Source: Candidatus Hydrogenedens sp. (GTDB lineage Bacteria; Hydrogenedentota; Hydrogenedentia; Hydrogenedentales; Hydrogenedentaceae). Taken from it: a stretch of DNA of 20,238 nt. Location: the NCBI GenBank assembly GCA_049968235.1, contig JBMFRC010000034.1:1-20238 (forward strand). Reading direction: 5' to 3'. Within the stretch, counting starts at the first letter, position 1. The number at the start of each line of letters is the position of its first letter. Positions 1 to 11,851 of the stretch are shown piece by piece. The notes under the pieces were generated by a model. That model was not told the origin of the DNA and searched no databases. It was given only the letters and a program-made list of their open reading frames with translations. The translations under genes were made by a program, and so were the position numbers.

Positions 1-899
<899 letters not shown>

Positions 900-1598: not shown

Positions 1599-3530
1599 CT
1601 AATCAAATTGAATATCACGCATGGCGGAATCTGCATCACCCGGATAAGTAAATATACGTATTGCTGTATAGCCTTTTCTGCGTGCAGAGAAAGGCACCTG
1701 TATCTTATGTTTCGTATAAGGTTCTACATTTCCTCTATCCGGTTCAACCCATGTTTTTTCAATCCTCTTTCTTGCAATCCAATTTTTGTTATTGAAGAAA
1801 AGGATAATAAAAGTATCGAATGAATCTAAATCTATTGTTAGGGATTTATCTTTTTTCATTTCATCAAGTTGAATCTCTATTCCATATTTCGGAACAATAA
1901 TTTTTGCAGATTCGTTTGATGCTATTCTTGCTTTTAATTCCCGATATGTTATCTTTTTGAGATTAGGAAATTGATAACGGTCTTTATCTATGAGGTAGTC
2001 ATACATACCTAAATTCATTTTGATGATGTCCCGCCAGCGTTCTATTGTAAATAAAGGACCGCGTGTGATAACTTTCAAATGGTCAAAAAATTGTGCTAAA
2101 TTTTTATCCTGGATTTTGTTTTCATCTCCCCCTGCGGAATCAATATAACCTTCGGGGATATATCGCCAGAAATGACCGATACGCCAACTTGGTCGGCAAA
2201 CAGCAGGCATTCGTGCTAATAAGGGGTCGGATAGTGCGTTATAATCAATAATATGAGCAACAGGACCTGCTAAGAAACCTCTATAGCCAACACTACCATG
2301 GGATTTGGTTATTCTTTTATTTGCCTGCCGATATTGTCTTCCTTGATTAGCAAAAGCATTACAAGGCATGGGTTTTCCTTTTTCCCAATGAGCCAGACTC
2401 GCCACTTGAAAATAGAACATTCGTTCATCACCTATACCATGTTCATCTTTAAATCCGGACAAATCTTTTCCAAAGGAGTTGTCCGTCAATATTGGGACAT
2501 TAGGCTGTATAAAACCTGTCATGAGAAATATACATATTGCGGGGATACCATGTTTCAATTGCTCCAATTTTGAATACCGAATAATAAGGATGGTAGCAAA
2601 GAGTAAAGGTACACTAAAAAATCTGCCTCCCATAAAATCGCCCCCTATCCAAATAATGTAAAGGCAATACAGAATAATACCTATCACACATGCCCAAATT
2701 TCTTTTTGCCTCTGATAAAATGGGATGAATAAACTTAAAAATAAAACCAGTAAGGTGATGAAATCTCTTTTCCACGAAAAAGCGTAATACCACAAGCCTT
2801 GCTTTATCAAATCCATTTTCCACAGTCCTGTACCTAATTTTGCGTAAGCAGTATTTGGAAATGGAAAGCCATAGTAAACAACTGAAAATACTTCCCACAA
2901 AGCCAGCGGGATAAAGCCTAAACAGAGTAGAATAAATCCTTGTTTCTTGTGTTCTGTCTGCCACCATGCATAAGCCAGTGGAGGGAAATAAAGTAAAATG
3001 CAATCCTGACGATTAAGAGTAGCCAGAGATGCTATCAGAGAGAGAAGAAATAAATTCTTCAAGGTAAATTTTTGTGGAAGGAATACAATCATAAATATCA
3101 CAAGTAATAAATGGCTCATAGGATTTTCCAGACCGGAAGAAGAAAAATCTACAAAAGCCCTTGAAAAACCTAGTATACTCCCTGCTATCAATACTTGCGA
3201 TAAGTTCTGTGCAATACCAAGATTTAAAGAAATTATTGTTAACATAGATATGGCAAATGAAATGAATATGGCAGTGAGAAACATTTCTCTTGTTATGGCA
3301 TAAAAAGGAATGTGCAGGAACATCCATAAAGGATGTGTATATGCCTGAACGCGTTCATTTACATTCCAGCGAAGTCCATAACCATTTACTGCATTATCCA
3401 CAGTACGAAATGATATATATGCATCATCGCATAACCATGCAGTACGAAGGAAAAGAATTGCAAAAAATATCCAGATACATAAAAGGGTAACACTTGTTAA
3501 AAACCACAATTTCTTTTTGCTATTTTCCAT
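1599..3530 (-). CDS. Polytopic membrane GT-C glycosyltransferase, AftB/Emb-like arabinofuranosyltransferase family (paralog 1, 643 aa)
   Basis: A 643-aa ORF. The N-terminal ~330 aa are highly hydrophobic (multiple TM helices) and the C-terminal ~300 aa are soluble. Motifs: WLCDDAYISFRTVDNAVNGYGLRWNVNERVQAYTHPLW (DD catalytic motif in the first loop), DFSSSGLENPMSH, YYGFPFPNTAYAKLG, WIGGDFMGGRFFSVPLL, IGDERMFY and RIGHFWRYIPEGY. From recollection these match mycobacterial AftB blocks (WIADDGLIVLRTVRN..GERVEA..TS.W; DFATSGLEN; YYGLLVPGTALAKD; GGDFMHGRVLLAPL; IVDERRFY; RIGHDKN). It is ~65% identical to the upstream paralog. Confidence 0.7.
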   Translation of the reverse strand: MENSKKKLWFLTSVTLLCIWIFFAILFLRTAWLCDDAYISFRTVDNAVNGYGLRWNVNERVQAYTHPLWMFLHIPFYAITREMFLTAIFISFAISMLTIISLNLGIAQNLSQVLIAGSILGFSRAFVDFSSSGLENPMSHLLLVIFMIVFLPQKFTLKNLFLLSLIASLATLNRQDCILLYFPPLAYAWWQTEHKKQGFILLCLGFIPLALWEVFSVVYYGFPFPNTAYAKLGTGLWKMDLIKQGLWYYAFSWKRDFITLLVLFLSLFIPFYQRQKEIWACVIGIILYCLYIIWIGGDFMGGRFFSVPLLFATILIIRYSKLEQLKHGIPAICIFLMTGFIQPNVPILTDNSFGKDLSGFKDEHGIGDERMFYFQVASLAHWEKGKPMPCNAFANQGRQYRQANKRITKSHGSVGYRGFLAGPVAHIIDYNALSDPLLARMPAVCRPSWRIGHFWRYIPEGYIDSAGGDENKIQDKNLAQFFDHLKVITRGPLFTIERWRDIIKMNLGMYDYLIDKDRYQFPNLKKITYRELKARIASNESAKIIVPKYGIEIQLDEMKKDKSLTIDLDSFDTFIILFFNNKNWIARKRIEKTWVEPDRGNVEPYTKHKIQVPFSARRKGYTAIRIFTYPGDADSAMRDIQFD

Positions 3531-3601
3531 AATAATTTTCTAATACCTTTTTATTTGTTTAAAAGCACATTACGAAATTATACAAAATTACACTTTACAA
3601 A

Positions 3602-5542
3602 TTATTTTGACAACAAGCGGAAATTTTTTATCTCGGAGTAAACATGTCTTTGATTGAGTTCCTTAGGGCAGACAAAAATACGAACTGTATCATATCCTTG
3701 CCTGATAACAAATTGTGGAAGTTTTATAGAATAAGTAGCAAATAACGACATATCGTCAGAAGTAGGACCTAATTTTATTCGTGTTAGGTATTCTTTATTG
3801 TTGAATAATAAAATATGGAATTGGTTCCATTTTCTTAATTCGAACTCCATATAGGGATTGTGTCTTACTTCTCCCAGTTGTATTTCTAATCCTCTTTCCT
3901 TAATTTTGAAACCTCGATTTTTTTCCAAATTTTGTAATTCTTCATCCCATTCTTTGTAATATTTTCTTTCTGTATCCGCAAATTGATATTTATCTTTATC
4001 TATTAGATGGTTGTAATATCCAAGATTCATTTTCAAAATCACTTCAAACCGTTCCCATGACCATATAGGACTACGGGTAATAATGCGGACATAATTATAG
4101 AATTGAGCGAGGTCAGGGTCTTCTATTTTATTTTCATTGCTACCCGCAGATTCCATATATCCTTCAGGGATATAGCGTATAAAATGACCTATAGCGATTT
4201 TGGGGTGATAAAGACTGGGCAAATGCGATAGTAATGGGTCTGCAAGGGCATGGAAATCAACAATATGAACAAGGGGACCTGAAAAAAAACCATAAAATCC
4301 GATACAACCGCGAAGTTTAGTTATTTGTATGTTTTTTCTTCTGTTTTCTCTTCCGTGCTCTGCCCAACTGAACGAGGGCATGGGTTTCCCTTTTTTCCAA
4401 TTTAATAGACTTGACCATTCATAATAATACTTGCGTTCTGTGGTAATCCCGTCCTTTGTAAAAAATCCTCCTTTACTATAATCTGCACCTGTAAAAATTG
4501 GAACATTAGGCTGTAATACACTTGAAAAGACGAAAAAAAACGCAATCGGGATGCCATATTTTATTTGGTTTACATTCAAATAACGAATAATCATGATTGT
4601 TGATAAGAGAAGAGGAACTGTGAAAAAACGACCACCCATAAAATCACCGCCTATCCATAAGATATATGCATAATAAAAGGTTAAACCCATCATCCAGATT
4701 ATTATTTCCTTTTGCCTTTGTAAAAAAGGAATGATGAATCCAATAAGAAGGACAAAACAAGTAATGCGGTCTTGATGATAAATCCATGTATAATATCGTA
4801 ATCCCTGAGAAATTAGGTCAAATCGAGATATTCCTGCTCCCAGTTTTGCGTAGGCTGTGTTGGGGAAAGGGTAACCATAATAAATAATCGAAAATACTTC
4901 CCAGAGAAATAAAGGCACAAAACCTGCACAGAGAAAAAGGAACCCTTTTGTCTTCTTTTCAGTATGCCACCATGCATAAATTAAAGCAGGTAGATAGATA
5001 AGAAGACAATCCTGACGGTTTAATGTAGCAAAACAGGATACGAGGGATAAAAGAAAAAGATTAGGTAATGTAAATTTTTTTAATAAAAATACAGAAAGAA
5101 AAAGCACTAATAGAAAATGACTCATCGGATTTTCTAAACCAGAAGAAGAAAAATCTATAAAGGCTCTTGAGAATCCTAATATACTGGCTACGATTAAAAC
5201 CTGTGCATTATTTTGAGCAATAAAAAGGGTAAGAAAAATAATAGTCAACATCGAAACAGTAAAAGAAATAAAGATAGGCGTCAGAAACATTTCTTTTGTA
5301 AGAAAATAAAAGGGTATATGTAAAAATAACCATAAGGGATGTGTGTATACCTGAACCCTTTCATTTATATTCCAGCGTAATCCATAGCCATTTACTGCAT
5401 TATCGACTGTACGGAAACTAATATATGCATCATCACAAAGCCATGCTGTCCGTAAAAACAGAATTGCAAAAAAGGTCCAGACACCCAGTAAAACAAGAAA
5501 ATTGTTTCTTCTATTTTTTAACATATCATCGAAATATGCCAC
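3602..5542 (-). CDS. Polytopic membrane GT-C glycosyltransferase, AftB/Emb-like arabinofuranosyltransferase family (paralog 2, 646 aa)
   Basis: A 646-aa ORF with the same architecture and the same motif set as paralog 1 (WLCDDAYISFRTVDNAVNGYGLRWNINERVQVYTHPLW; SSGLENPMSH; YYGYPFPNTAYAKLG; WIGGDFMGGRFFTVPLL; ITTERKYY; AIGHFIRYIPEGY). It is co-directional with paralog 1 with a 71-bp gap. DNA identity is only ~75-80% in the conserved blocks, so this is an old duplication and not an assembly artefact. Confidence 0.7.
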   Translation of the reverse strand: MAYFDDMLKNRRNNFLVLLGVWTFFAILFLRTAWLCDDAYISFRTVDNAVNGYGLRWNINERVQVYTHPLWLFLHIPFYFLTKEMFLTPIFISFTVSMLTIIFLTLFIAQNNAQVLIVASILGFSRAFIDFSSSGLENPMSHFLLVLFLSVFLLKKFTLPNLFLLSLVSCFATLNRQDCLLIYLPALIYAWWHTEKKTKGFLFLCAGFVPLFLWEVFSIIYYGYPFPNTAYAKLGAGISRFDLISQGLRYYTWIYHQDRITCFVLLIGFIIPFLQRQKEIIIWMMGLTFYYAYILWIGGDFMGGRFFTVPLLLSTIMIIRYLNVNQIKYGIPIAFFFVFSSVLQPNVPIFTGADYSKGGFFTKDGITTERKYYYEWSSLLNWKKGKPMPSFSWAEHGRENRRKNIQITKLRGCIGFYGFFSGPLVHIVDFHALADPLLSHLPSLYHPKIAIGHFIRYIPEGYMESAGSNENKIEDPDLAQFYNYVRIITRSPIWSWERFEVILKMNLGYYNHLIDKDKYQFADTERKYYKEWDEELQNLEKNRGFKIKERGLEIQLGEVRHNPYMEFELRKWNQFHILLFNNKEYLTRIKLGPTSDDMSLFATYSIKLPQFVIRQGYDTVRIFVCPKELNQRHVYSEIKNFRLLSK

Positions 5543-5640
5543 ACGATGCTTATGTGTTTTATTTACTCATAATAAAATAATAGAAAGAGTAAATACCATT
5601 CCACTTTTTTAGACAGAGGTAATACAGAATAAAATTGTTT

Positions 5641-5690
5641 TTTCAAGGGGTTTCAAGTTAAAATTATCCCTTAATTAATTTTAGTATAAT
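5641..5690 (+). promoter_or_regulatory. Putative clpP promoter region: direct heptad repeat TTTCAAG-ggg-TTTCAAG upstream of a TATAAT -10
   Basis: TTTCAAG at 5641-5647 and 5651-5657, exactly 10 bp apart. A perfect TATAAT lies at 5685-5690, 24 nt before the AAAGGAG RBS of clpP. The -35 is weak. On the opposite strand the same repeats read CTTGAAA x2, giving TTGAAA -35-like hexamers for the divergent GT-C paralog 2. Confidence 0.3.
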
Positions 5691-5714
5691 CTCGTGAAAG
5701 AAAGGAGCAAAGTA

Positions 5715-6302
5715 ATGGCTTTTTGTGAAGAACCGGAAATTCGTGAAGAGGAGAAACCAGCCCCGCAGGAAGGTCTATCTCTCCGATTGTTAAAAAATCG
5801 TGTAGTTATCGTATCTGGTGAAGTAACTCAGGAATTGGCGGAGAAAATCATAACACAATTATTGTTATTAGATTATGAATCTCAAGAACCCATTACTGTC
5901 TATGTATGTTCTCCTGGAGGACATGTCGATTCAGGTTTCGCCATTTATGACATAATGAAGTTTGTTCAGTCGCCAATAACGACAATTGGTGTAGGTTGGG
6001 TTGCCAGTATTGCTGTACCCATTCTAATGGGGGCTCCCAAAGAAAGACGGTTCGCATTACCCAACACACGATTTCTAATACATCAACCTTCAGGGGGAGC
6101 AGGAGGACAGGCGGCAGATATTCGAATAGAAGCACAGGAAATTTTAAAGATTCGTGAACGGATTAATCATCTTTTATCCGTGGAAACAGGACATCCCATA
6201 GAGAAAATAGCCAAAGATAGTGACCGCAATTTTTGGATGTCCGCAGAAGAGGCACTGGAATATGGTTTAATCGGAGAGATTATTGCTAAAAGAAAGATGT
6301 AA
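5715..6302 (+). CDS. clpP: ATP-dependent Clp protease proteolytic subunit (ClpP family, atypical N-terminus)
   Basis: Aligns to ClpP throughout the protease core. The catalytic Ser is in GWVASIA, the His in LIHQPSGG and the Asp in DSDRNFW. The ATG at 5715 is preferred because an AAAGGAG RBS sits 7 nt upstream; the ORF track starts at a GTG at 5694. The N-terminal ~25 aa (MAFCEEPEIREEEKPAPQEGL) are acidic and lack the canonical ClpP axial-loop motif. No clpX follows. Confidence 0.85.
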   Translation: MAFCEEPEIREEEKPAPQEGLSLRLLKNRVVIVSGEVTQELAEKIITQLLLLDYESQEPITVYVCSPGGHVDSGFAIYDIMKFVQSPITTIGVGWVASIAVPILMGAPKERRFALPNTRFLIHQPSGGAGGQAADIRIEAQEILKIRERINHLLSVETGHPIEKIAKDSDRNFWMSAEEALEYGLIGEIIAKRKM

Positions 6303-6314
6303 AAAAGGCAATAA

Positions 6315-7586
6315 ATGAATGAAAATGTATCTGAACAAATTACCCATCCCCCCAAAAAGTCCGTATTTAAGAAAATAATTTTTAGTATATTTTTAGTCAT
6401 TTCTGCAATCGTTATTAGTTTGATAATTTTCGTAGTGGGGGTTCTTATATTCTCTGTCTTATATTCTGAACCTATGCAAATGTATCCAGAACGAATAAAA
6501 GGAATACAAATTTCTTCACCCATACCTGTAGTCCCTGGGAAAGGAATGCCTGAAGATTTTTCTCCTATGCGTTCAACAAATAATGTTGACCTTATTCGCA
6601 TAGGTGCAAGTATATTTATGAGTTTACGCACAGCACCCAGTCATTTTGCATCAACCAATACAAAGTTGTATGTAATGCGTTCTGATGATGAAGGCAAATC
6701 ATGGAAGAAAGAACTATGTATAAGGATGGGACATGACCTCCGCGAACCTCGTTTCTTACATTTTAAGAACAGATTATTTTTATATTTCTACACAGGAGGT
6801 ACTGACCCTCTACGATTTGAACCGGGGTACATTCATTATAGTGAAAGACTGGAGGATAATTATTGGACAGAACCACAACAAATCTTTCAACCCGGTTATG
6901 TGGTCTGGCGTGTTCGCACCCTAGGAGAATATGCCTACATGTCGGTATATTATGGTTTAGATATATATGGGAAAGGAGACCGTGGCGATGTTCGTCTTTT
7001 AATTTCCTCCGATGGCGTTTTGTGGCAACCCATTTCTAATGAGCCACAAATTGACCGTGTTGGAGCAGAGGAGGCAGAATTTGTATTTGATGATAAAGGA
7101 GGAATTGTATCGCTGGTTCGTCTTGAAGTAGGAGGAGGTGCGTTAGTTTGTCGTGCCCCTGCGGATAAAATTGATTGCTGGGAGTGTAAATTTACACCTT
7201 ATAAAGTTGACTCCTCACTTATGTTTACCCACAAAGGGCGATTTTTTATTGTGGGTAGAAGAAACATAGCCGGACGTTCAGCAAGAACTGTAGGATTTTT
7301 ACCTGAAAGCGTCCAGAATGCATGGAGCATGGTATTTTATTCTATTACGCGAAAACGCACCTGCATATATGAAATAAATCCCAATACTCTGGAGTTATAC
7401 CCTCTTATTGATTTGCCATCTAAAGGAGATACCGCTTTTGCTGGAATTGTACCGTTTTCTGAGGAAAAATATTATCTGGTAAATTACAGCAGTCCCTTAG
7501 AAGGATTTGATTTGCCGTGGATTGGCGGACAATTATTAGAAAGCCGATTGTATGGGTTCATTCTCGATTTTTCTGATGTCAAATAA
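6315..7586 (+). CDS. Membrane-anchored BNR/Asp-box repeat protein (sialidase-like beta-propeller; possible glycoside hydrolase)
   Basis: 423 aa. There is an N-terminal hydrophobic anchor (IIFSIFLVISAIVISLIIFVVGVLIFSVL). Two clear Asp-box (S-x-D-x-G-x-x-W) motifs are present: RSDDEGKSW and SSDGVLW. The start is 12 bp after the clpP stop, which suggests co-transcription. Confidence 0.75.
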   Translation: MNENVSEQITHPPKKSVFKKIIFSIFLVISAIVISLIIFVVGVLIFSVLYSEPMQMYPERIKGIQISSPIPVVPGKGMPEDFSPMRSTNNVDLIRIGASIFMSLRTAPSHFASTNTKLYVMRSDDEGKSWKKELCIRMGHDLREPRFLHFKNRLFLYFYTGGTDPLRFEPGYIHYSERLEDNYWTEPQQIFQPGYVVWRVRTLGEYAYMSVYYGLDIYGKGDRGDVRLLISSDGVLWQPISNEPQIDRVGAEEAEFVFDDKGGIVSLVRLEVGGGALVCRAPADKIDCWECKFTPYKVDSSLMFTHKGRFFIVGRRNIAGRSARTVGFLPESVQNAWSMVFYSITRKRTCIYEINPNTLELYPLIDLPSKGDTAFAGIVPFSEEKYYLVNYSSPLEGFDLPWIGGQLLESRLYGFILDFSDVK

Positions 7587-7590
7587 AAAA

Positions 7591-7612
7591 GAGATAACCT
7601 CAATATTATCTC
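7591..7612 (-). terminator. Intrinsic terminator hairpin shared by convergent glnE and the BNR gene
   Basis: GAGATAA (7591-7597), loop CCTCAATA, TTATCTC (7606-7612). On the minus-strand transcript it is followed by TTTTTTATTTG. It overlaps the glnE stop codon (7611-7613) and lies 5 bp after the BNR gene stop. Confidence 0.5.
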
Positions 7613-10600
7613 ATTCAATCCATTGTTGAACAGTTTCCAATGTTTCTAAATAGAACTGGTGGACTTTTCTCTTTAAGTTTTTCAAGTATTCCGAAGGTGT
7701 CGGTGTAAATTGGATTTCAGGTAATAATTGTGGGAGCATGGCAAGTGTTTGTTCAGAGAGTGTAGAACTGCGAACTCCTGTAAATAATCGGTAGCGATTT
7801 AATATTTGCAAATAAATTCCAAAAGTCTTTTTCAAAAATTGCCATTTCTCTGTATGTTCAGGTGCAATATTTAATAGAATATTTAATGCATTAACAACTG
7901 AAGGAGTTGCTAACTCAGGACACTGTTCTATCTTTAATCTCTGCCACCAACGAACAATATATTCTAATTCGGCTGTTCCTCCTTCGGATTTTTTTAAGTT
8001 ATCAGGATTTGTTTGTTGAAGCATTTTTTGTCGTATGCTCTCACTTTTTTGGACATCTTCTCGGGATACAGGGAAATGAAAAGCCAGTTCAGTAAGTATC
8101 TGCGGAATGTTCACTGTCATTTCACCTTGTTCCACTATAACTCGGGCTTTCATCAATGCCATTTTTTCCCAGATATCTGCTTCACACTTATAATATTCCT
8201 TTAATTGGTTCAAACTAATTGCTAAGACTCCTTTTGAGCCGTACGGGCGTAACCGTGCATCAATATCATATAGAATTCCAAAACGGGTAGGTTCTTTAAG
8301 TTTTTTAATAATTCGTGATGATACATCCGCAAAATATTCAGAAGGACTAATGGGAATAGCATCCAATTCATCAACAGAATTTACATGTCCATCATAAACA
8401 AATATTAAATCAAGGTCACTACCAAAGGTCATTTCACCTCCACCAATCTTACCCAATCCTATTACTGCAAAGGGTAATGGACATGCTCCATATTTCTGTT
8501 TAGTTTCTTCCAAAGATATAATTGCTATATCCTGAAGTATTACTTCCGCTAATAGGGTAAGTTGTTCACATACCTCTTCAATAGTAAATGTTCTTACCAA
8601 ATCACCTAATGCAATTCGTAGCCACTCGGAATCCTTTAGACGATAATGAGAAGACTCCGGGAATACAGACCTTTTTAATTCCTGTAAGGAAAAATTTAAA
8701 TATTCAGGGTTAACTTTTTGTCCAATAAGTTCTCCCTGTAGAAACACTTCTATAATTCCGGGTTCTTTTATCCATATATCGGATAAAGCAGGGGCATGAG
8801 TTGCCAGTGTTACAAAAAAAGAACAAAGATTATAATTTTCTTTGAGGAGAGAGTAGATAACGCCCGGAATTTTTAGTCGTGATAATTGGGAAAAGAATTG
8901 TCTTAGAGACTCATCTGGGGAACAGGTATTACGGAACTCTTCACATAAATAAGGAACAATTTCTATAAAATTTTCACGAACATGTAAAGAATGAGGTGCG
9001 TCTTCTGGACCGTTTGCCAATAAGCGAAAAGTATCTCTCGCCGAGGTTACATCATTAAAACCAAACTCTTTTAATTTGTTTAAACCATCTTTCCCATCAG
9101 ATTGGGAACTTACTAAATCATAAACCCACAGATTACCGGATGCTTTAACTGCAACAAATTGTTCTAATATACTTCGGACTTCTTGTGTTTTATCTTTATA
9201 CACGCACCAGAAAGATTCCCCCGAGACATAACCCAATCGTTGGGCAAACTCATCTAAATCTTTTGGGTCCTGTGGTAAAGCATGTTTTTGTGTTCCGTAT
9301 TCAATTTGAAGACGGTGTTCTACCTCTCTCAAAAAACAGTAATTTTGTATCAGGGTTTCTGCGTCAAAAGGTTTTAAATAATTATTTTCCATCAATTTGT
9401 AAATAGCATCAATGGTATTGGTTATCCTTAGTTCGGGTTTTCTACCACCATTCAATAATTGGAGCAATTGTACGGTAAATTCAATATCCCGAATCCCTCC
9501 TCTACCCAATTTAACTTCATAACTTGTTTGTCCTTGTTCCGCTACCTGTTTTTCTACCATCAGTTTTGTCTGGTGTATATCATCCAATGTCTTATCATCA
9601 AAAAATTTTGGGAAAATAAAAGATCGCATCATCTCTAAAAATTCATTCCCGAGATTTATATCACCGGCACAAGGTCTACATTTCACCAACGCCTGTCGCT
9701 CCCATGCACGTCCATACTGGTAATAGTACTCTACAGAATTAGTAAGACTTTCTGCTAAAGCACCAACTTTTCCATAAGGTCGCAAACGCATATCAACACG
9801 GTAAATCTGACCTTCTTCGGTATGTTCTGATAAGAATTTAATAATTTGTTCCCCTAATTTACAGAAATATTCACGATTGGTAATTTGCCCTTTGTCCCCT
9901 CCACTTGTTTCCCCATCTCCATCGTAAATAAACAACAAATCAATATCGGAACTAAAATTAAGTTCTCTGCCCCCTAATTTTCCCAGTGCAAATATGACAA
10001 AATTTGACGATGAATTTTCTCCTTTTTGCGTATCATGTCTTATTGGAACACCGTATCGTTGTTTTAAGTAGGTTGAGAGTAAATGAAAACATAATTCGAG
10101 ATGAGCGTCCGCAAGATTAGAAAGGTCCTCTACAATGGACTTGACTTCCTGATGTTCTACTATATCACGAGTAGTAATTCGAAGAAGTGCTTTTTTATGA
10201 AGTCGGCGGAAATATATCATTATTTTTTTCAAATCCCAATCATTACCCTCAAGAAGGTGCTTATCCCGGAGAACACTTATTATTTCAGAGGATGAATTCA
10301 TCAAAGCGGAATCCCAACCTAAGTAAAACATCCATTCTTCTTTTGTTAAAGCACGGGAAAGGGTTGGCGACAATAATATTTCATCTGCAAATTCGGGATG
10401 CTTAATGAGGCTATCCGTTATGAATGGACTTTGTGAAAATATTCTTTCAAAAAATCGCAAATATTTGGGAGTTTGAAGATATTTATATATATGAATTTCC
10501 ACAGGGGATGTTAGACTTTTTAGGTATTGTGCAAAAGCAACAATTACACGCTCAGGATTAGAGGTTTCATTAAGAAGCAATTCCAGCCGGGTTTGCCATT

Positions 10601-10682
10601 CCTGAATAGGGATGGATATTAAATAATTCCAATCTTCTCTGACACTTTCGGATAATCGATCGAATATATTTCTTTTTTCCAT
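7611..10682 (-). CDS. glnE: Bifunctional glutamine synthetase adenylyltransferase / adenylyl-removing enzyme
   Basis: A 1023-aa ORF with two nucleotidyltransferase signatures: LGKLGGRELNFSSDIDLLFIYDG and LGKIGGGEMTFGSDLDLIFVYDG. Further collinear blocks match E. coli GlnE (YRVDMRLRPYG, GGIRDIEFTVQLLQL). Confidence 0.9.
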   Translation of the reverse strand: MEKRNIFDRLSESVREDWNYLISIPIQEWQTRLELLLNETSNPERVIVAFAQYLKSLTSPVEIHIYKYLQTPKYLRFFERIFSQSPFITDSLIKHPEFADEILLSPTLSRALTKEEWMFYLGWDSALMNSSSEIISVLRDKHLLEGNDWDLKKIMIYFRRLHKKALLRITTRDIVEHQEVKSIVEDLSNLADAHLELCFHLLSTYLKQRYGVPIRHDTQKGENSSSNFVIFALGKLGGRELNFSSDIDLLFIYDGDGETSGGDKGQITNREYFCKLGEQIIKFLSEHTEEGQIYRVDMRLRPYGKVGALAESLTNSVEYYYQYGRAWERQALVKCRPCAGDINLGNEFLEMMRSFIFPKFFDDKTLDDIHQTKLMVEKQVAEQGQTSYEVKLGRGGIRDIEFTVQLLQLLNGGRKPELRITNTIDAIYKLMENNYLKPFDAETLIQNYCFLREVEHRLQIEYGTQKHALPQDPKDLDEFAQRLGYVSGESFWCVYKDKTQEVRSILEQFVAVKASGNLWVYDLVSSQSDGKDGLNKLKEFGFNDVTSARDTFRLLANGPEDAPHSLHVRENFIEIVPYLCEEFRNTCSPDESLRQFFSQLSRLKIPGVIYSLLKENYNLCSFFVTLATHAPALSDIWIKEPGIIEVFLQGELIGQKVNPEYLNFSLQELKRSVFPESSHYRLKDSEWLRIALGDLVRTFTIEEVCEQLTLLAEVILQDIAIISLEETKQKYGACPLPFAVIGLGKIGGGEMTFGSDLDLIFVYDGHVNSVDELDAIPISPSEYFADVSSRIIKKLKEPTRFGILYDIDARLRPYGSKGVLAISLNQLKEYYKCEADIWEKMALMKARVIVEQGEMTVNIPQILTELAFHFPVSREDVQKSESIRQKMLQQTNPDNLKKSEGGTAELEYIVRWWQRLKIEQCPELATPSVVNALNILLNIAPEHTEKWQFLKKTFGIYLQILNRYRLFTGVRSSTLSEQTLAMLPQLLPEIQFTPTPSEYLKNLKRKVHQFYLETLETVQQWIE

Positions 10683-10693
10683 ATTTTAGTGAG

Positions 10694-11851
10694 TCATCGT
10701 TTTGTTTTTATTTTACCGTAATAAAAAAGTTTCGCTATCTGTTCGCTTGTTCGTTGAATATTATTTGAAGTGTTTTTCAAAATATCTTCCTGGGATGTTT
10801 CTCCCGCAGAAATAGGAAAGACAACGACATTTCTTTTAGACTGGCATACATCCCAACCTTTTCCTAATTTCCCAACAAGGATAATTACCATTTTATTATA
10901 CATCTGGGCAAGACTTATCATTTCCCCGACAACCTTTCCAAAAAAACTCTGGTGGTCTAATTGTCCTTCGCCAGTAATAATAAGGTCAACAGAAGCAAGT
11001 TTCCGGGATAAATTACTGGCTTGGGCTATCCATTGAAAACCGGGAATAAACTTCCCGTTAGCAAATGCAAATAAAGCGCCTCCCATTCCTCCTGCGGAAC
11101 CACTGCTCGGTTGTTTCTGTATATCTATTTGCATATCTCTCTTGATTATACCAGCAAATTTTCTAAGGGCTTTATCTACAATGGGACATAACTCTTTTTT
11201 CAATCCTTTTTGAGGACCATATACAAATGTAGCCCCCTGTGGACCGTAGTAAGGATTTTTTACATCACTGGCTATGATAATATCTGTGTTTTTAATTCGT
11301 TCATAAAAACGGGTATTTTTTATACATGCAAGATTTTGTAGTTCTAAAGGTCCTTCCCCAATAGATTTTCCTTGAGAATTGAGAAGTTGATAACCTAACG
11401 CCTGAGCAATACCTGCTCCCCCATCATTAACCCCAGACCCTCCTAAACCTATGACAATCTGTCTTGCCCCTTTTTGAATTGCATGCAGAATAATCTCTCC
11501 CACTCCATAACTAGTAAAAAATTCCGGTTTTCGTACATTTTTTGGAACAAGATGAAGCCCCACAATTTTAGCCGTTTCTATAACGGCTGTCTTTTGTTTT
11601 GAAATCCAGCCATACTTAACTTTCCTTTTTTTACCTGTTAAATCTGTAACAGTCGTAGTGAGGTATTCTACATTTAAATTTACCGATACTGCATTTAAAA
11701 AACCCTCTCCACCATCTGAAAGGGGACATATAATTAACTGACTATCAGGAATTATTCGTTTCCATCCCTCGGCAATAGAGGTTGCAACTTCTGTGGTATC
11801 TAAAGACTCCTTAAAAGAATCCGGAGCAATAAGAACTTTTAATTTTGCCAT
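10694..11851 (-). CDS. glxK: Glycerate kinase (GarK/GlxK family)
   Basis: 385 aa, beginning MAKLKVLIAPDSFKESL, with glycine-rich loops (VIGLGGSGVNDGGAG) typical of the glycerate kinase family. It lies 11 bp upstream of glnE on the same strand. Choosing the symbol glxK over garK is arbitrary. Confidence 0.8.
   Translation of the reverse strand: MAKLKVLIAPDSFKESLDTTEVATSIAEGWKRIIPDSQLIICPLSDGGEGFLNAVSVNLNVEYLTTTVTDLTGKKRKVKYGWISKQKTAVIETAKIVGLHLVPKNVRKPEFFTSYGVGEIILHAIQKGARQIVIGLGGSGVNDGGAGIAQALGYQLLNSQGKSIGEGPLELQNLACIKNTRFYERIKNTDIIIASDVKNPYYGPQGATFVYGPQKGLKKELCPIVDKALRKFAGIIKRDMQIDIQKQPSSGSAGGMGGALFAFANGKFIPGFQWIAQASNLSRKLASVDLIITGEGQLDHQSFFGKVVGEMISLAQMYNKMVIILVGKLGKGWDVCQSKRNVVVFPISAGETSQEDILKNTSNNIQRTSEQIAKLFYYGKIKTKR

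What the first reader, a model, noticed from the sequence alone, without database searches (positions are those of the whole stretch)
5641..7586. Atypical orphan clpP translationally coupled to a membrane-anchored BNR/Asp-box protein, divergent from the AftB-like pair
clpP is normally followed by clpX. Here it is followed 12 bp later by a 423-aa signal-anchored protein with two Asp-box motifs (RSDDEGKSW, SSDGVLW), i.e. a sialidase-like beta-propeller. The pair shares a ~170-bp divergent control region with the two GT-C genes. A BNR-propeller glycosidase or lectin next to furanosyltransferases is consistent with an envelope-glycan synthesis and trimming module. The clpP linkage is unexplained and could be fortuitous.
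Basis: partly seen in the sequence, partly recalled or inferred. Interest (0 to 1): 0.5.

Follow-up and report, generated by a model that had tools for sequence, protein, structure and literature searches.

The report
ClpP1-type protease beside anchored sialidase-fold propeller
A second-copy Clp protease gene and a membrane-anchored, sialidase-shaped protein of unknown function sit 12 bases apart in one bacterial genus only, so the pairing looks like an accident of gene order, although the sialidase-shaped protein belongs to a large family nobody has described.

Summary
The window is a 20-kb contig of Candidatus Hydrogenedens sp. It carries a clpP gene (5715-6302), then 12 nt later a 423-aa gene (6315-7586). 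The pair is divergent from two AftB-like GT-C genes across 172 bp.

The clpP is a ClpP1-type isoform. Its best solved relative is Listeria ClpP1, and its triad is Ser98-His123-Asn172, not Ser-His-Asp. This kind of isoform works with a separate ClpP2 ring, which explains why no clpX follows.

The neighbourhood is not conserved. Only loci with at least 72% propeller identity (one genus) have clpP and GT-C nearby. A sister genome has GT-C, clpP and glnE with no propeller between them. Elsewhere the propeller stands in unrelated contexts.

Verdict: the two genes are juxtaposed only in this genus and are probably co-transcribed there. A glycan synthesis-and-trimming module is not supported. The propeller family is a modestly interesting uncharacterised enzyme family.

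The parts
5635..5664 (+). Promoter-like block upstream of clpP: -35-like TTGTTT (5635-5640), 18-nt spacer, -10-like TAAAAT (5659-5664).
   Evidence: The block AAAATTGTTTTT..GGGTTTCAAGTTA(A/G)AATTATC is conserved upstream of clpP in the four Hydrogenedens loci (window, L010, L011/L001, L012). Assigning it as a promoter is inference. The consensus scan picked a different weak site at 5608-5635.
5715..6302 (+). clpP1-type gene (195 aa from ATG 5715; the mechanical ORF starts at GTG 5694). AAAGGAG Shine-Dalgarno at 5701-5707.
   Evidence: Pfam PF00574 E 2e-66 and NCBIfam PRK12553 at 244 bits against a cutoff of 228. Best PDB matches are Listeria monocytogenes ClpP1 (4jcq, 4ryf, 6sfx_A) at 200 bits, against about 160 bits for canonical ClpPs. 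NCBI calls it a 195-aa 'ClpP family protease'.
6006..6008 (+). Codon for catalytic Ser98 (WVASIAV).
   Evidence: Aligned with E. coli Ser97 (mature numbering) and Listeria ClpP1 Ser98.
6081..6083 (+). Codon for catalytic His123 (LIHQPS).
6228..6230 (+). Codon for Asn172, which replaces the triad Asp (KDSDRNFWMS).
   Evidence: Ungapped alignment puts E. coli Asp171 and Listeria ClpP1 Asn172 (KDTDRNFWLS) on this residue. Of the 120 closest ClpP clusters, 115 have Asn here.
6303..6314 (+). 12-nt clpP-propeller spacer with an AAAGG Shine-Dalgarno-like element and no terminator.
   Evidence: The spacing is 11-16 nt in the three other Hydrogenedens loci.
6315..7586 (+). 423-aa type-II membrane-anchored six-bladed sialidase-fold beta-propeller from an uncurated family.
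6375..6464 (+). Signal-anchor (transmembrane) segment, aa 21-50, preceded by basic residues (predicted N-in, C-out).
   Evidence: AF2 helix at aa 16-49. Kyte-Doolittle maximum of 3.26. An N-terminal hydrophobic segment is present in 86 of 110 scorable homologues.
6681..6704 (+). Asp-box 1, SDDEGKSW (aa 123-130), in the C-D loop of blade 1.
   Evidence: W130 is invariant.
7005..7025 (+). Asp-box 2, SSDGVLW (aa 231-237), one residue short, in the C-D loop of blade 3.
7591..7612 (.). AT-rich inverted repeat GAGATAA / TTATCTC (8-nt loop) in the 24-nt gap between the convergent propeller and glnE stops. Possibly a weak bidirectional terminator.
   Evidence: Read directly from the sequence. The terminator scan did not call it, so confidence is low.
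1599..5542 (-). Context only: two tandem paralogous AftB-like GT-C membrane glycosyltransferase genes (1599-3530 and 3602-5542), divergent from clpP.
   Evidence: PDB AftB 9dlf E 6e-11 with the DD motif aligned. NCBIfam AftB model scores 47-53 bits, far below its 1050-bit cutoff. They are linked to clpP in L082 as well, without the propeller.

Best explanation
Two functionally unrelated genes have become neighbours, and probably one transcript, only within the genus Candidatus Hydrogenedens.

Gene 1 is a ClpP1-type isoform of the Clp protease core. It has Ser98-His123-Asn172 instead of Ser-His-Asp, and an acidic, non-canonical N-terminus in place of the axial-loop motif. By analogy with Listeria ClpP1, it is expected to be poorly active alone. 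It would work as one heptameric ring stacked on a canonical ClpP2 ring, with ClpX or ClpC docking on the ClpP2 side. That would explain why no clpX follows it. This step is inferred.

Gene 2 encodes a protein held in the cytoplasmic membrane by one N-terminal helix. Its six-bladed sialidase-fold propeller faces outside the cytoplasm. Thirty-one of its 35 invariant residues lie on the loops that form the entrance face of such propellers. This is typical of an enzyme pocket, and the pocket is rich in Arg and in Asp/Glu. It seems to keep the sialidase Glu (E253) and two of the three Arg (R269, R315/R316). The first Arg position is Asn89/90, and the nucleophile Tyr position is Phe375, next to an invariant Asp372. 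The most likely function is therefore a non-GH33 hydrolase acting on an anionic, membrane-proximal or extracellular glycoconjugate. The substrate is unknown, and this step is also inferred.

The adjacency to clpP and to the GT-C genes reflects local gene order, not a shared pathway.
For: ClpP identity:
- Pfam and NCBIfam hits.
- The top PDB hits are Listeria ClpP1 at 200 bits, against about 160 bits for canonical ClpPs. The motif KDSDRNFW aligns ungapped to the Listeria KDTDRNFW.
- E. coli Asp171 aligns to this Asn, and the canonical N-terminal motif is absent.
- 115 of the 120 nearest clusters carry Asn.
- Published behaviour of Listeria ClpP1: impaired Ser98-His123-Asn172 triad, inactive heptamer, no chaperone binding, active only in the ClpP1/2 heterocomplex (PMC9257651).

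Propeller:
- Invariant columns, mapped onto the DSSP strands.
- A hydrophobic N-terminus in 86 of 110 homologues.

No functional linkage:
- tblastn of ClpP, both GT-Cs, GlnE, GlyK and GreA against the 72 genome loci finds them only in L010, L011 and L012.
- Loci at 71%, 67%, 65%, 51% and 45% identity and below have unrelated neighbours.
- L082 has GT-C, clpP, glnE, glxK, greA and carB, with a 142-bp clpP-glnE spacer and no propeller remnant.
- ClpP in L083 stands alone.
- All-against-all clustering of neighbours finds no partner outside single-order synteny.
Against: - Within the genus, the 11-16-nt spacing, the Shine-Dalgarno-like element and the lack of a terminator are kept in four species. 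Co-expression is therefore likely and could have been co-opted.
- The residue equivalences with sialidases come from a manual match of strand order and motifs to human NEU2, not from a 3D superposition.
- No ClpP2 or ClpX gene could be looked for, because only this 20-kb contig was available.
- A DPM1-like GT2 gene lies within about 3 kb of the propeller in two other Hydrogenedentota contexts and in Chitinophagales. Some link to glycoconjugate metabolism in general therefore remains possible.
Confidence: 0.7

Rival explanations
1. First reader's reading. The GT-C genes, clpP and the propeller form an envelope-glycan synthesis-and-trimming module. The AftB-like transferases build a furanoside-containing polymer and the propeller trims it, under a shared divergent control region.
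For: - Both GT-C proteins are AftB-like with the DD motif.
- A 172-bp divergent spacer separates the two gene pairs.
- The arrangement is kept in four Hydrogenedens species.
Against: - In those four species the whole region through carB is syntenic, so conservation there says nothing specific.
- No GT-C lies within 10 kb of the propeller in the other 69 genome loci. These include six other Hydrogenedentota loci (L013, L015, L016, L018, L020, L026).
- L082 keeps GT-C and clpP without the propeller.
Confidence: 0.1
2. The propeller is a true retaining exo-sialidase or ulosonic-acid hydrolase. Examples would be an inner-membrane Kdo hydrolase like KdhA/KdoH2, or a nonulosonic-acid sidase that trims LPS core or capsule at the periplasmic face.
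For: - The best characterised fold matches are GH33 sialidases, Kdnases and a pseudaminidase.
- Some members give weak hits to BNR_2 and to the BT_1020 DHA-hydrolase propeller.
- Six invariant Arg suggest an acidic substrate.
- The known Kdo hydrolase is a sialidase-like catalytic subunit held at the inner membrane (PMC3573668).
Against: - By topological mapping, the first Arg of the triad is Asn89/90 and the nucleophile Tyr position is Phe in 50 of 57 sequences.
- The window protein has no BNR_2 hit even at E<=5.
- There is no adjacent small membrane-subunit gene.
- The family also occurs in Acidimicrobiia. These are Actinobacteria and, from general knowledge, lack LPS.
Confidence: 0.15
3. 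The propeller is a non-catalytic binding or scaffold protein, such as a lectin or an assembly factor in the manner of other Asp-box propellers.
For: - The canonical sialidase nucleophile and first Arg seem to be missing.
- No catalytic family model matches.
- The gene is usually stand-alone, with no metabolic partners.
Against: - There are 35 invariant and 29 near-invariant columns at 41% mean column identity across many phyla.
- 31 of the 35 invariant residues lie on entrance-face elements, and many are charged (R105, H110, R143, E144, R199, E253, R269, E271, D299, R315, R316, D366, D372). This pattern is typical of catalysis rather than binding.
Confidence: 0.15
4. The clpP1-propeller coupling is functional. 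For example, the two genes form a stress operon, or ClpP1-containing protease controls the propeller through its short cytoplasmic tail.
For: - The tight spacing is conserved in four species, with no terminator and a conserved upstream promoter-like block.
- In Listeria, ClpP1 function is tied to elevated temperature (PMC9257651).
Against: - The linkage is absent in every relative below 72% propeller identity, and in the sister genome L082.
- ClpP1-type genes elsewhere stand alone.
- The two products are in different compartments.
- The cytoplasmic tail is about 20 residues and is not conserved (consensus).
Confidence: 0.07

Closest known systems
Listeria monocytogenes ClpP1 (PDB 4JCQ, 4RYF, 6SFX)
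   Same: It is the best solved match (E 2e-58, 200 bits). It has the same Ser98-His123-Asn172 triad with identical numbering and the same KD(S/T)DRNFW motif. Its N-terminus is non-canonical, and no clpX follows the gene.
   Different: It comes from a Gram-positive Firmicute, whereas this ClpP is from Hydrogenedentota (FCB group). The acidic N-terminal extension differs. A partner ClpP2, heptamer state and heterocomplex are all untested here.
GH33 exo-sialidases (for example human NEU2 1SNT, Salmonella NanH, C. perfringens NanH)
   Different: Sequence identity is 10-14%. There is no BNR_2 hit. Arg21 maps to Asn89/90, Tyr334 maps to Phe375 (F in 50 sequences, Y in 7) and Glu355 maps to Tyr391. 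The family has its own invariant residues (D92, R105, H110, R143, E144, R199, D299, D366, D372, Q406). It also has an N-terminal membrane anchor.
Dfer_1899 of Dyadobacter fermentans (PDB 5HX0, function unknown)
   Different: It is a different sequence family (profile E about 1). It has no known function, so it adds no mechanism. No paper on it was found.
GH58 phage endosialidases (for example phi92, K1F endoNF)
   Different: They are trimeric tailspike enzymes with extra domains. They have no membrane anchor and no detectable sequence relationship to this family.
Two-component Kdo hydrolase KdhAB/KdoH1-KdoH2 (Francisella, Helicobacter, Legionella)
   Same: A sialidase-like catalytic protein operating at the inner membrane on an envelope glycolipid (PMC3573668). 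This is an analogy for how an anchored sialidase-fold enzyme can work.
   Different: That enzyme uses a separate small membrane subunit encoded by an overlapping gene. Here the anchor is fused and no such partner gene exists. Sequence relatedness could not be tested. The family also occurs in Actinobacteria.
Mycobacterial AftB (PDB 9DLF), for the neighbouring GT-C genes only
   Same: N-terminal membrane domain similarity with the DD motif (E 6e-11).
   Different: Scores are far below the NCBIfam equivalog cutoff (47-53 bits against 1050). The similarity is therefore at family level, with an unknown sugar and acceptor.

Membership tests
ClpP protease family (Pfam PF00574) | Match to the family model above the gathering score | tested here: met
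   223.7 bits against a cutoff of 20.2. NCBIfam PRK12553 subfamily at 244.3 bits against 228.
Canonical ClpP (TIGR00493 equivalog; E. coli or B. subtilis type) | Ser-His-Asp catalytic triad | tested here: not met
   Ser98 and His123 are present. The third residue is Asn172, aligned ungapped to E. coli Asp171. TIGR00493 scores 193.6 bits, below its 308.6 cutoff.
Canonical ClpP | Conserved N-terminal axial-loop segment (E. coli ...VPMVIEQTSRGERS...) | tested here: not met
   The alignment A2 shows an unrelated, acidic, variable N-terminus in this subfamily. The Pfam match starts at profile position 12.
clpP-clpX operon | clpX immediately downstream of clpP | tested here: not met
   The downstream gene is the propeller in the window. 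It is glnE in L082 and unrelated genes in L083.
ClpP1-type isoform (Listeria ClpP1-like) | Closest to ClpP1 rather than to canonical ClpP, with Asn in the triad | tested here: met
   4jcq, 6sfx_A and 4jcr lead the PDB hits at 198-200 bits. 4jcr is the copy whose printed alignment has Asp (KDTDRDFW) where the other two have Asn (KDTDRNFW), and it scores slightly lower. 115 of the 120 nearest clusters have Asn.
ClpP1-type isoform (Listeria ClpP1-like) | A canonical ClpP2 partner in the same genome, and a heptamer that is active only in the ClpP1/2 heterocomplex | not testable with these tools
The biochemistry is untested.
Sialidase-fold six-bladed beta-propeller (structural class) | Six four-stranded blades, closest to sialidases in 3D | tested here: met
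BNR/Asp-box proteins | S-x-D-x-G-x-x-W motifs in C-D loops | tested here: met
   One canonical box (aa 123-130), one shortened (aa 231-237) and two degenerate (W184, W289). Pfam BNR (PF02012) matches only 6 of 57 members, at E>=0.1.
Pfam BNR_2 (PF13088) / GH33 sequence family | Match to the family model | tested here: not met
   The window protein has no hit even at E<=5. Eight of 57 members give sub-threshold hits (best E 8e-5). hhalign against NEU2 and against a NEU2 profile was not significant.
GH33 sialidases | Arginine triad binding the carboxylate | tested here: inconclusive
   The mapping is manual, by strand order and motif, to NEU2 (sequence verified). R237 maps to R269 and R304 maps to R315/R316, both invariant. 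R21 maps to N89/N90, also invariant. No 3D superposition was possible.
GH33 sialidases | Tyr nucleophile with its Glu partner | tested here: inconclusive
   E218 maps to the invariant E253. Y334 maps to position 375, which is Phe in 50 and Tyr in 7 of 57 sequences. D372 nearby is invariant. The same caveat applies; the result leans towards not met.
Kdo hydrolase KdhAB/KdoH1-H2 | Adjacent or overlapping gene for a small inner-membrane subunit; sequence homology to KdhA | tested here: not met
   No small membrane-protein gene flanks the propeller in the window or in the surveyed loci.
Proposed GT-C / clpP / BNR glycan module | Neighbourhood conserved in related genomes | tested here: not met
   It is present only in 3 of 72 species-level loci (all at least 72% identical, with whole-region synteny). 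It is absent at 71% identity and below. The propeller is absent from the same block in L082.

The most novel reading that the evidence does not exclude
The 423-aa protein represents an undescribed enzyme family. It has at least 294 clusters at 50% identity with E<=1e-30, spans many phyla and is so far known only from uncultured genomes. Its members are membrane-anchored sialidase-fold propellers that have replaced the GH33 Arg/Tyr machinery with their own invariant set (N89, N90, D92, R105, H110, R143, E144, R199, D299, D366, D372, Y391, Q406). The family would be a new glycoside-hydrolase family, or a non-hydrolytic enzyme, acting on an anionic cell-surface or environmental glycoconjugate.
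Probability: 0.35. Interest if true: 0.5.

Novelty: new variant of a known kind. Interest (0 to 1): 0.3.

Why it matters
The gene pair itself does not reveal a new system. The 'unexplained clpP linkage' reduces to a ClpP1-type paralogue, a known kind, that happens to precede an inserted or retained gene in one genus.

Two modest points remain of value. First, Asn-triad ClpP1-type isoforms have been studied mainly in Listeria. Here they form a coherent, highly conserved subfamily in Hydrogenedentota and Myxococcota, at 60-70% identity across those phyla. This suggests hetero-oligomeric ClpP1/P2 cores are more widespread than usually assumed.

Second, the propeller belongs to a large, phylogenetically broad family. 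It has a very confident sialidase-fold model and a strongly conserved pocket, but it has no Pfam or NCBIfam model and apparently a non-canonical catalytic set. Such families are where new carbohydrate-active enzyme activities tend to be found, and this one has a simple, expressible ectodomain.

Tried and rejected
- Sequence-profile mapping of the catalytic residues. hhalign of the family alignment against NEU2 alone, in global mode, and against a 16-sequence NEU2 profile was not significant each time, and it cross-matched different blades. The third homologue search, seeded with NEU2, returned only vertebrate NEU2 orthologues, so it did not give a diverse GH33 profile.
- A literature search for 5HX0 or Dfer_1899 found nothing relevant.
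- Domain fusions as functional hints. Only a YdjM membrane domain and a GNAT domain were found. The GNAT case may be a gene-call fusion. Both were uninformative.
- Neighbour clustering over 72 loci. Recurrent neighbours (glutathione peroxidase-like, LmbE/PIG-L-like deacetylase, a 335-aa protein, GT2) are confined to Chitinophagales synteny. Only the GT2 recurs in Hydrogenedentota, and GT2 genes are common.
- A CtsR-like operator idea. The perfect direct repeat TTTCAAG-GGG-TTTCAAG (5641-5657) is not kept as a repeat in the sister species. Only the surrounding promoter-like block is kept.
- Mobile-element or insertion scars. No flanking repeats were found around the propeller gene, and no remnant of it in the clpP-glnE spacer of L082. 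Composition is unremarkable: GC is about 0.39-0.40, against 0.33-0.44 in the neighbours.
- The NCBIfam scan of all family members found nothing.
Full report
**What is in the window**

The window is a whole 20,238-bp contig of a Candidatus Hydrogenedens sp. MAG (phylum Hydrogenedentota). The 423-aa product is 100% identical to NCBI protein ACP5KS_12845, and the ClpP cluster's longest contig is 20,238 bp. The gene order is as follows:
- 1-896 (-): the 5' part of a 16S rRNA gene
- 1599-3530 and 3602-5542 (-): two paralogous membrane proteins of about 645 aa
- 5715-6302 (+): clpP
- 6315-7586 (+): the 423-aa gene
- 7611-10682 (-): glnE
- 10694-11851 (-): glycerate kinase
- then greA, carB, metK, rplA, rplK, nusG and tRNA-Trp

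**Observation check**

- clpP matches Pfam CLP_protease at E 2e-66.
- Its likely start is ATG 5715, which lies 7 nt after AAAGGAG and is also NCBI's start. The mechanical ORF begins at GTG 5694.
- The clpP stop is followed by 12 nt containing AAAGG, then ATG 6315. No terminator-like site intervenes.
- The 423-aa protein has a canonical Asp-box (SDDEGKSW, aa 123-130) and a shortened one (SSDGVLW, aa 231-237). It also has a 30-residue hydrophobic stretch after a basic N-terminus.
- The divergent spacer to the GT-C gene is 172 bp.
- The two upstream proteins are indeed AftB-like. They match PDB AftB 9dlf at E 6e-11 with the DD motif aligned, but score far below the NCBIfam equivalog cutoff.

**The clpP**

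It is not a canonical ClpP. Against solved structures, the three best matches are Listeria monocytogenes ClpP1 chains (4jcq/4ryf, 6sfx_A, 4jcr) at 198-200 bits. Canonical ClpPs score about 160 bits.

The printed alignment is ungapped through the C-terminal half. It puts the window's KDSDRNFWMS on the Listeria KDTDRNFWLS. An alignment with E. coli ClpP puts the catalytic Asp171 on the same Asn.

Counted from ATG 5715, the triad is Ser98-His123-Asn172, the same residue numbers as in Listeria ClpP1. The N-terminus is acidic and variable and lacks the canonical axial-loop segment.

Of the 120 closest clusters, 115 have Asn at this position. These clusters come mostly from Hydrogenedentota, with some from Myxococcota, and are 60-96% identical.

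For Listeria, PMC9257651 states the following:
- ClpP1 has an impaired Ser98-His123-Asn172 triad.
- It is an inactive heptamer on its own and cannot bind AAA+ partners.
- It becomes active in a ClpP1/ClpP2 heterotetradecamer, to which ClpX docks through ClpP2.

The 'atypical orphan clpP' is therefore a new member of a known kind. That it needs a ClpP2 partner here is an inference, because the rest of the genome was not available.

**The 423-aa protein: fold**

It has no Pfam, NCBIfam or PDB sequence match. It does have 356 homologue clusters at 90% identity. In an exhaustive profile search, 294 clusters at 50% identity score E<=1e-30, 1366 score E<=1e-10 and 2448 score E<=1e-3.

A 57-sequence alignment has 35 invariant and 29 near-invariant columns. 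AlphaFold2 with this alignment gives pLDDT 94.4 and pTM 0.90. The model has one long helix (aa 16-49) followed by 24 strands forming six four-stranded blades.

An N-terminal hydrophobic segment is present in 86 of 110 scorable homologues, so an extracytoplasmic location is a family trait.

**The 423-aa protein: active site**

Model coordinates are not returned by the tools, so I mapped residues by strand order. In this fold the Asp-boxes sit in C-D loops. That fixes the blades as follows:
- Blade 1: 87-96, 99-107, 117-123, 131-136
- Blade 2: 141-150, 153-161, 173-178, 184-189
- Blade 3: 195-203, 206-213, 226-231, 238-246
- Blade 4: 251-258, 264-270, 276-281, 290-294
- Blade 5: 299-306, 309-317, 347-355, 360-367
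- Blade 6: 373-380, 385-392, 410-418, closed by the N-terminal strand 70-73

By the usual propeller topology, the entrance face is built from the D-to-A loops with the start of strand A, and from the end of strand B with the B-C loops. Thirty-one of the 35 invariant residues lie on those elements. The other four are W130, L154, G262 and W289.

I matched motifs blade by blade to human NEU2. I had recalled its sequence from memory, and one search showed it matched PDB 1SNT apart from one residue, which I corrected before using it. The mapping is:
- Glu218 to E253, invariant
- Arg237 to R269, invariant
- Arg304 to R315/R316, invariant
- Arg21 to N89/N90
- Tyr334 to position 375 (Phe in 50 sequences, Tyr in 7)
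- Glu355 to Y391

The weak HMM alignment to 5hx0 supports the register at blades 1 and 4. Profile-profile alignment to NEU2 was not significant, so this mapping remains an inference.

The picture is an enzyme-like pocket that shares part of the sialidase site but not the GH33 hallmark residues. Six invariant Arg hint at an anionic substrate. I cannot name the substrate.

**Is the neighbourhood conserved?**

No.
- A pattern scan of one genome per species returned 72 loci, all from MAGs. The phyla and groups include Hydrogenedentota, Planctomycetota, Bacteroidota, Acidimicrobiia, Myxococcota, Acidobacteria, Nitrospirales, Spirochaetales and Binatia.
- tblastn of the window's ClpP, both GT-Cs, GlnE, GlyK and GreA against these loci (up to +/-10 kb, less where the contig ends sooner) finds all of them only in L010, L011 and L012. 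Those loci have 72-83% propeller identity. This is whole-region synteny within one genus.
- The next relatives have quite different neighbours: 71% (L084), 68-71% (L020), 67% (L085), 65% (L002), 63% (L016), 57% (L013), 51% (L004), 45% (L005) and more distant ones.
- A Hydrogenedentota genome whose ClpP is 80-84% identical carries a full GT-C, a 180-aa GT-C remnant, clpP, glnE, glxK, greA and carB. Its clpP-glnE spacer is 142 bp, with no trace of the propeller.
- Another ClpP1-type gene (70-73% identical) has neither GT-C nor the propeller nearby.
- Clustering all flanking ORFs found no partner family beyond synteny within Chitinophagales. The one exception is a DPM1-like GT2, which also lies within about 3 kb in two Hydrogenedentota contexts. 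This is a weak lead, because GT2 genes are common.

The gene is often flanked by genes on the opposite strand, so it may frequently be transcribed on its own.

**Interpretation**

In Hydrogenedens the propeller gene sits between clpP1 and glnE and is probably transcribed from the clpP promoter. A block containing TTGTTT, an 18-nt spacer and TAAAAT (5635-5664) is conserved in the four species.

There is no comparative support for a functional link to ClpP or to the AftB-like transferases. ClpP acts in the cytoplasm, whereas the propeller is outside it.

**Comparison with known systems**

- ClpP: a member of the ClpP family, not a canonical Asp-triad ClpP, and it fits the Listeria ClpP1 type.
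- Propeller: a member of the sialidase-fold structural class and an Asp-box protein, but not a member of Pfam BNR_2/GH33 by sequence. The Arg triad and Tyr nucleophile are inconclusive, leaning towards not met.
- Possible working analogies are the inner-membrane Kdo hydrolase KdhAB (PMC3573668) and, in its reduced catalytic set, GH58 endosialidases. The GH58 point comes from my own knowledge and was not checked here. Membership of either family is not shown.

**Verdict**

The pairing is ordinary gene-order drift. The residual interest lies in the uncharacterised propeller family and in the spread of Asn-triad ClpP1 isoforms. Interest is 0.3.

Noticed in passing
window 1-896 (-): The 5' 880 positions of a bacterial 16S rRNA gene (885 bits), cut by the contig end. 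This explains the 53% GC at the left edge, against about 36% elsewhere.
   Followed up: partly
window 1599-3530 and 3602-5542 (-); L082 5380-7323 and 7369-7911: Tandem AftB-like GT-C paralogues, each matching PDB AftB 9dlf over the N-terminal domain including the DD motif. In the sister genome (L082) the second copy is reduced to a 180-aa remnant that joins residues about 3-137 to about 605-641. AftB-like arabinofuranosyltransferase relatives outside Actinobacteria may deserve their own look.
   Followed up: partly
L082 8001-8594 with flanks; L083 8001-8594: The ClpP1-type gene is linked to the GT-C gene and glnE in a second Hydrogenedentota lineage, but stands in a different context in a third. 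None of the contexts has clpX.
   Followed up: yes
proteins P0148, P0151, P0152, P0153, P0155: One sub-clade of the Asn-triad ClpP1-type subfamily has Asp at the triad position (KDSDRDFW). These proteins carry a poly-Asp N-terminus (MIFHDDDDDDKK...).
   Followed up: no
L028, L032-L035, L038, L039, L044, L047, L048, L053, L062, L069 (Chitinophagales and Saprospirales): In this clade the propeller gene is preceded by a glutathione-peroxidase-like gene. It is followed by an LmbE/PIG-L-like deacetylase (AHPDDVE motif), a 335-aa protein of unknown family and a DPM1-like GT2. These assignments were made by eye from the sequences, not by an HMM scan.
   Followed up: partly
L004 / L014 (Nitrospiraceae MAG), 7129-8004 and 8001-9221 in L004: A glycerophosphodiester phosphodiesterase (GDPD) gene overlaps the start of the propeller gene by 4 bp. 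This is the tightest coupling to an annotated enzyme seen anywhere in the family.
   Followed up: no
L007 (Myxococcota) and L009: The propeller gene lies among Rieske ring-hydroxylase, MMPL/RND (sterol-sensing domain), TetR, lipocalin, thiolase, ChsH2 and MaoC genes. The setting resembles lipid or steroid catabolism. It was seen in two unrelated loci only.
   Followed up: no
L002, L003, L016, L085 (other Hydrogenedentota): Here the propeller's 3' end overlaps, convergently by about 10-35 bp, a roughly 940-aa gene with no Pfam domain. HSP20, gidB and a GT2 gene lie upstream.
   Followed up: no
protein P0282 (808 aa): A family member fused to an N-terminal YdjM-type polytopic inner-membrane domain in place of the single anchor helix. 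This is consistent with function at the membrane surface.
   Followed up: partly
window 5641-5657 (+): A perfect direct repeat TTTCAAG-GGG-TTTCAAG between the putative -35 and -10 elements of clpP. Its layout resembles a CtsR box, but the first heptad is not conserved in sister species.
   Followed up: yes
L082 11886-13032 (-): The glycerate kinase gene of the sister genome is split into 320-aa and 66-aa ORFs. This may be a frameshift or an assembly error.
   Followed up: no
locus list: All 72 species-representative genomes carrying the propeller family, as detected through one peptide pattern, are metagenome-assembled. No cultured organism appeared, so no experimental host is obvious.
   Followed up: no
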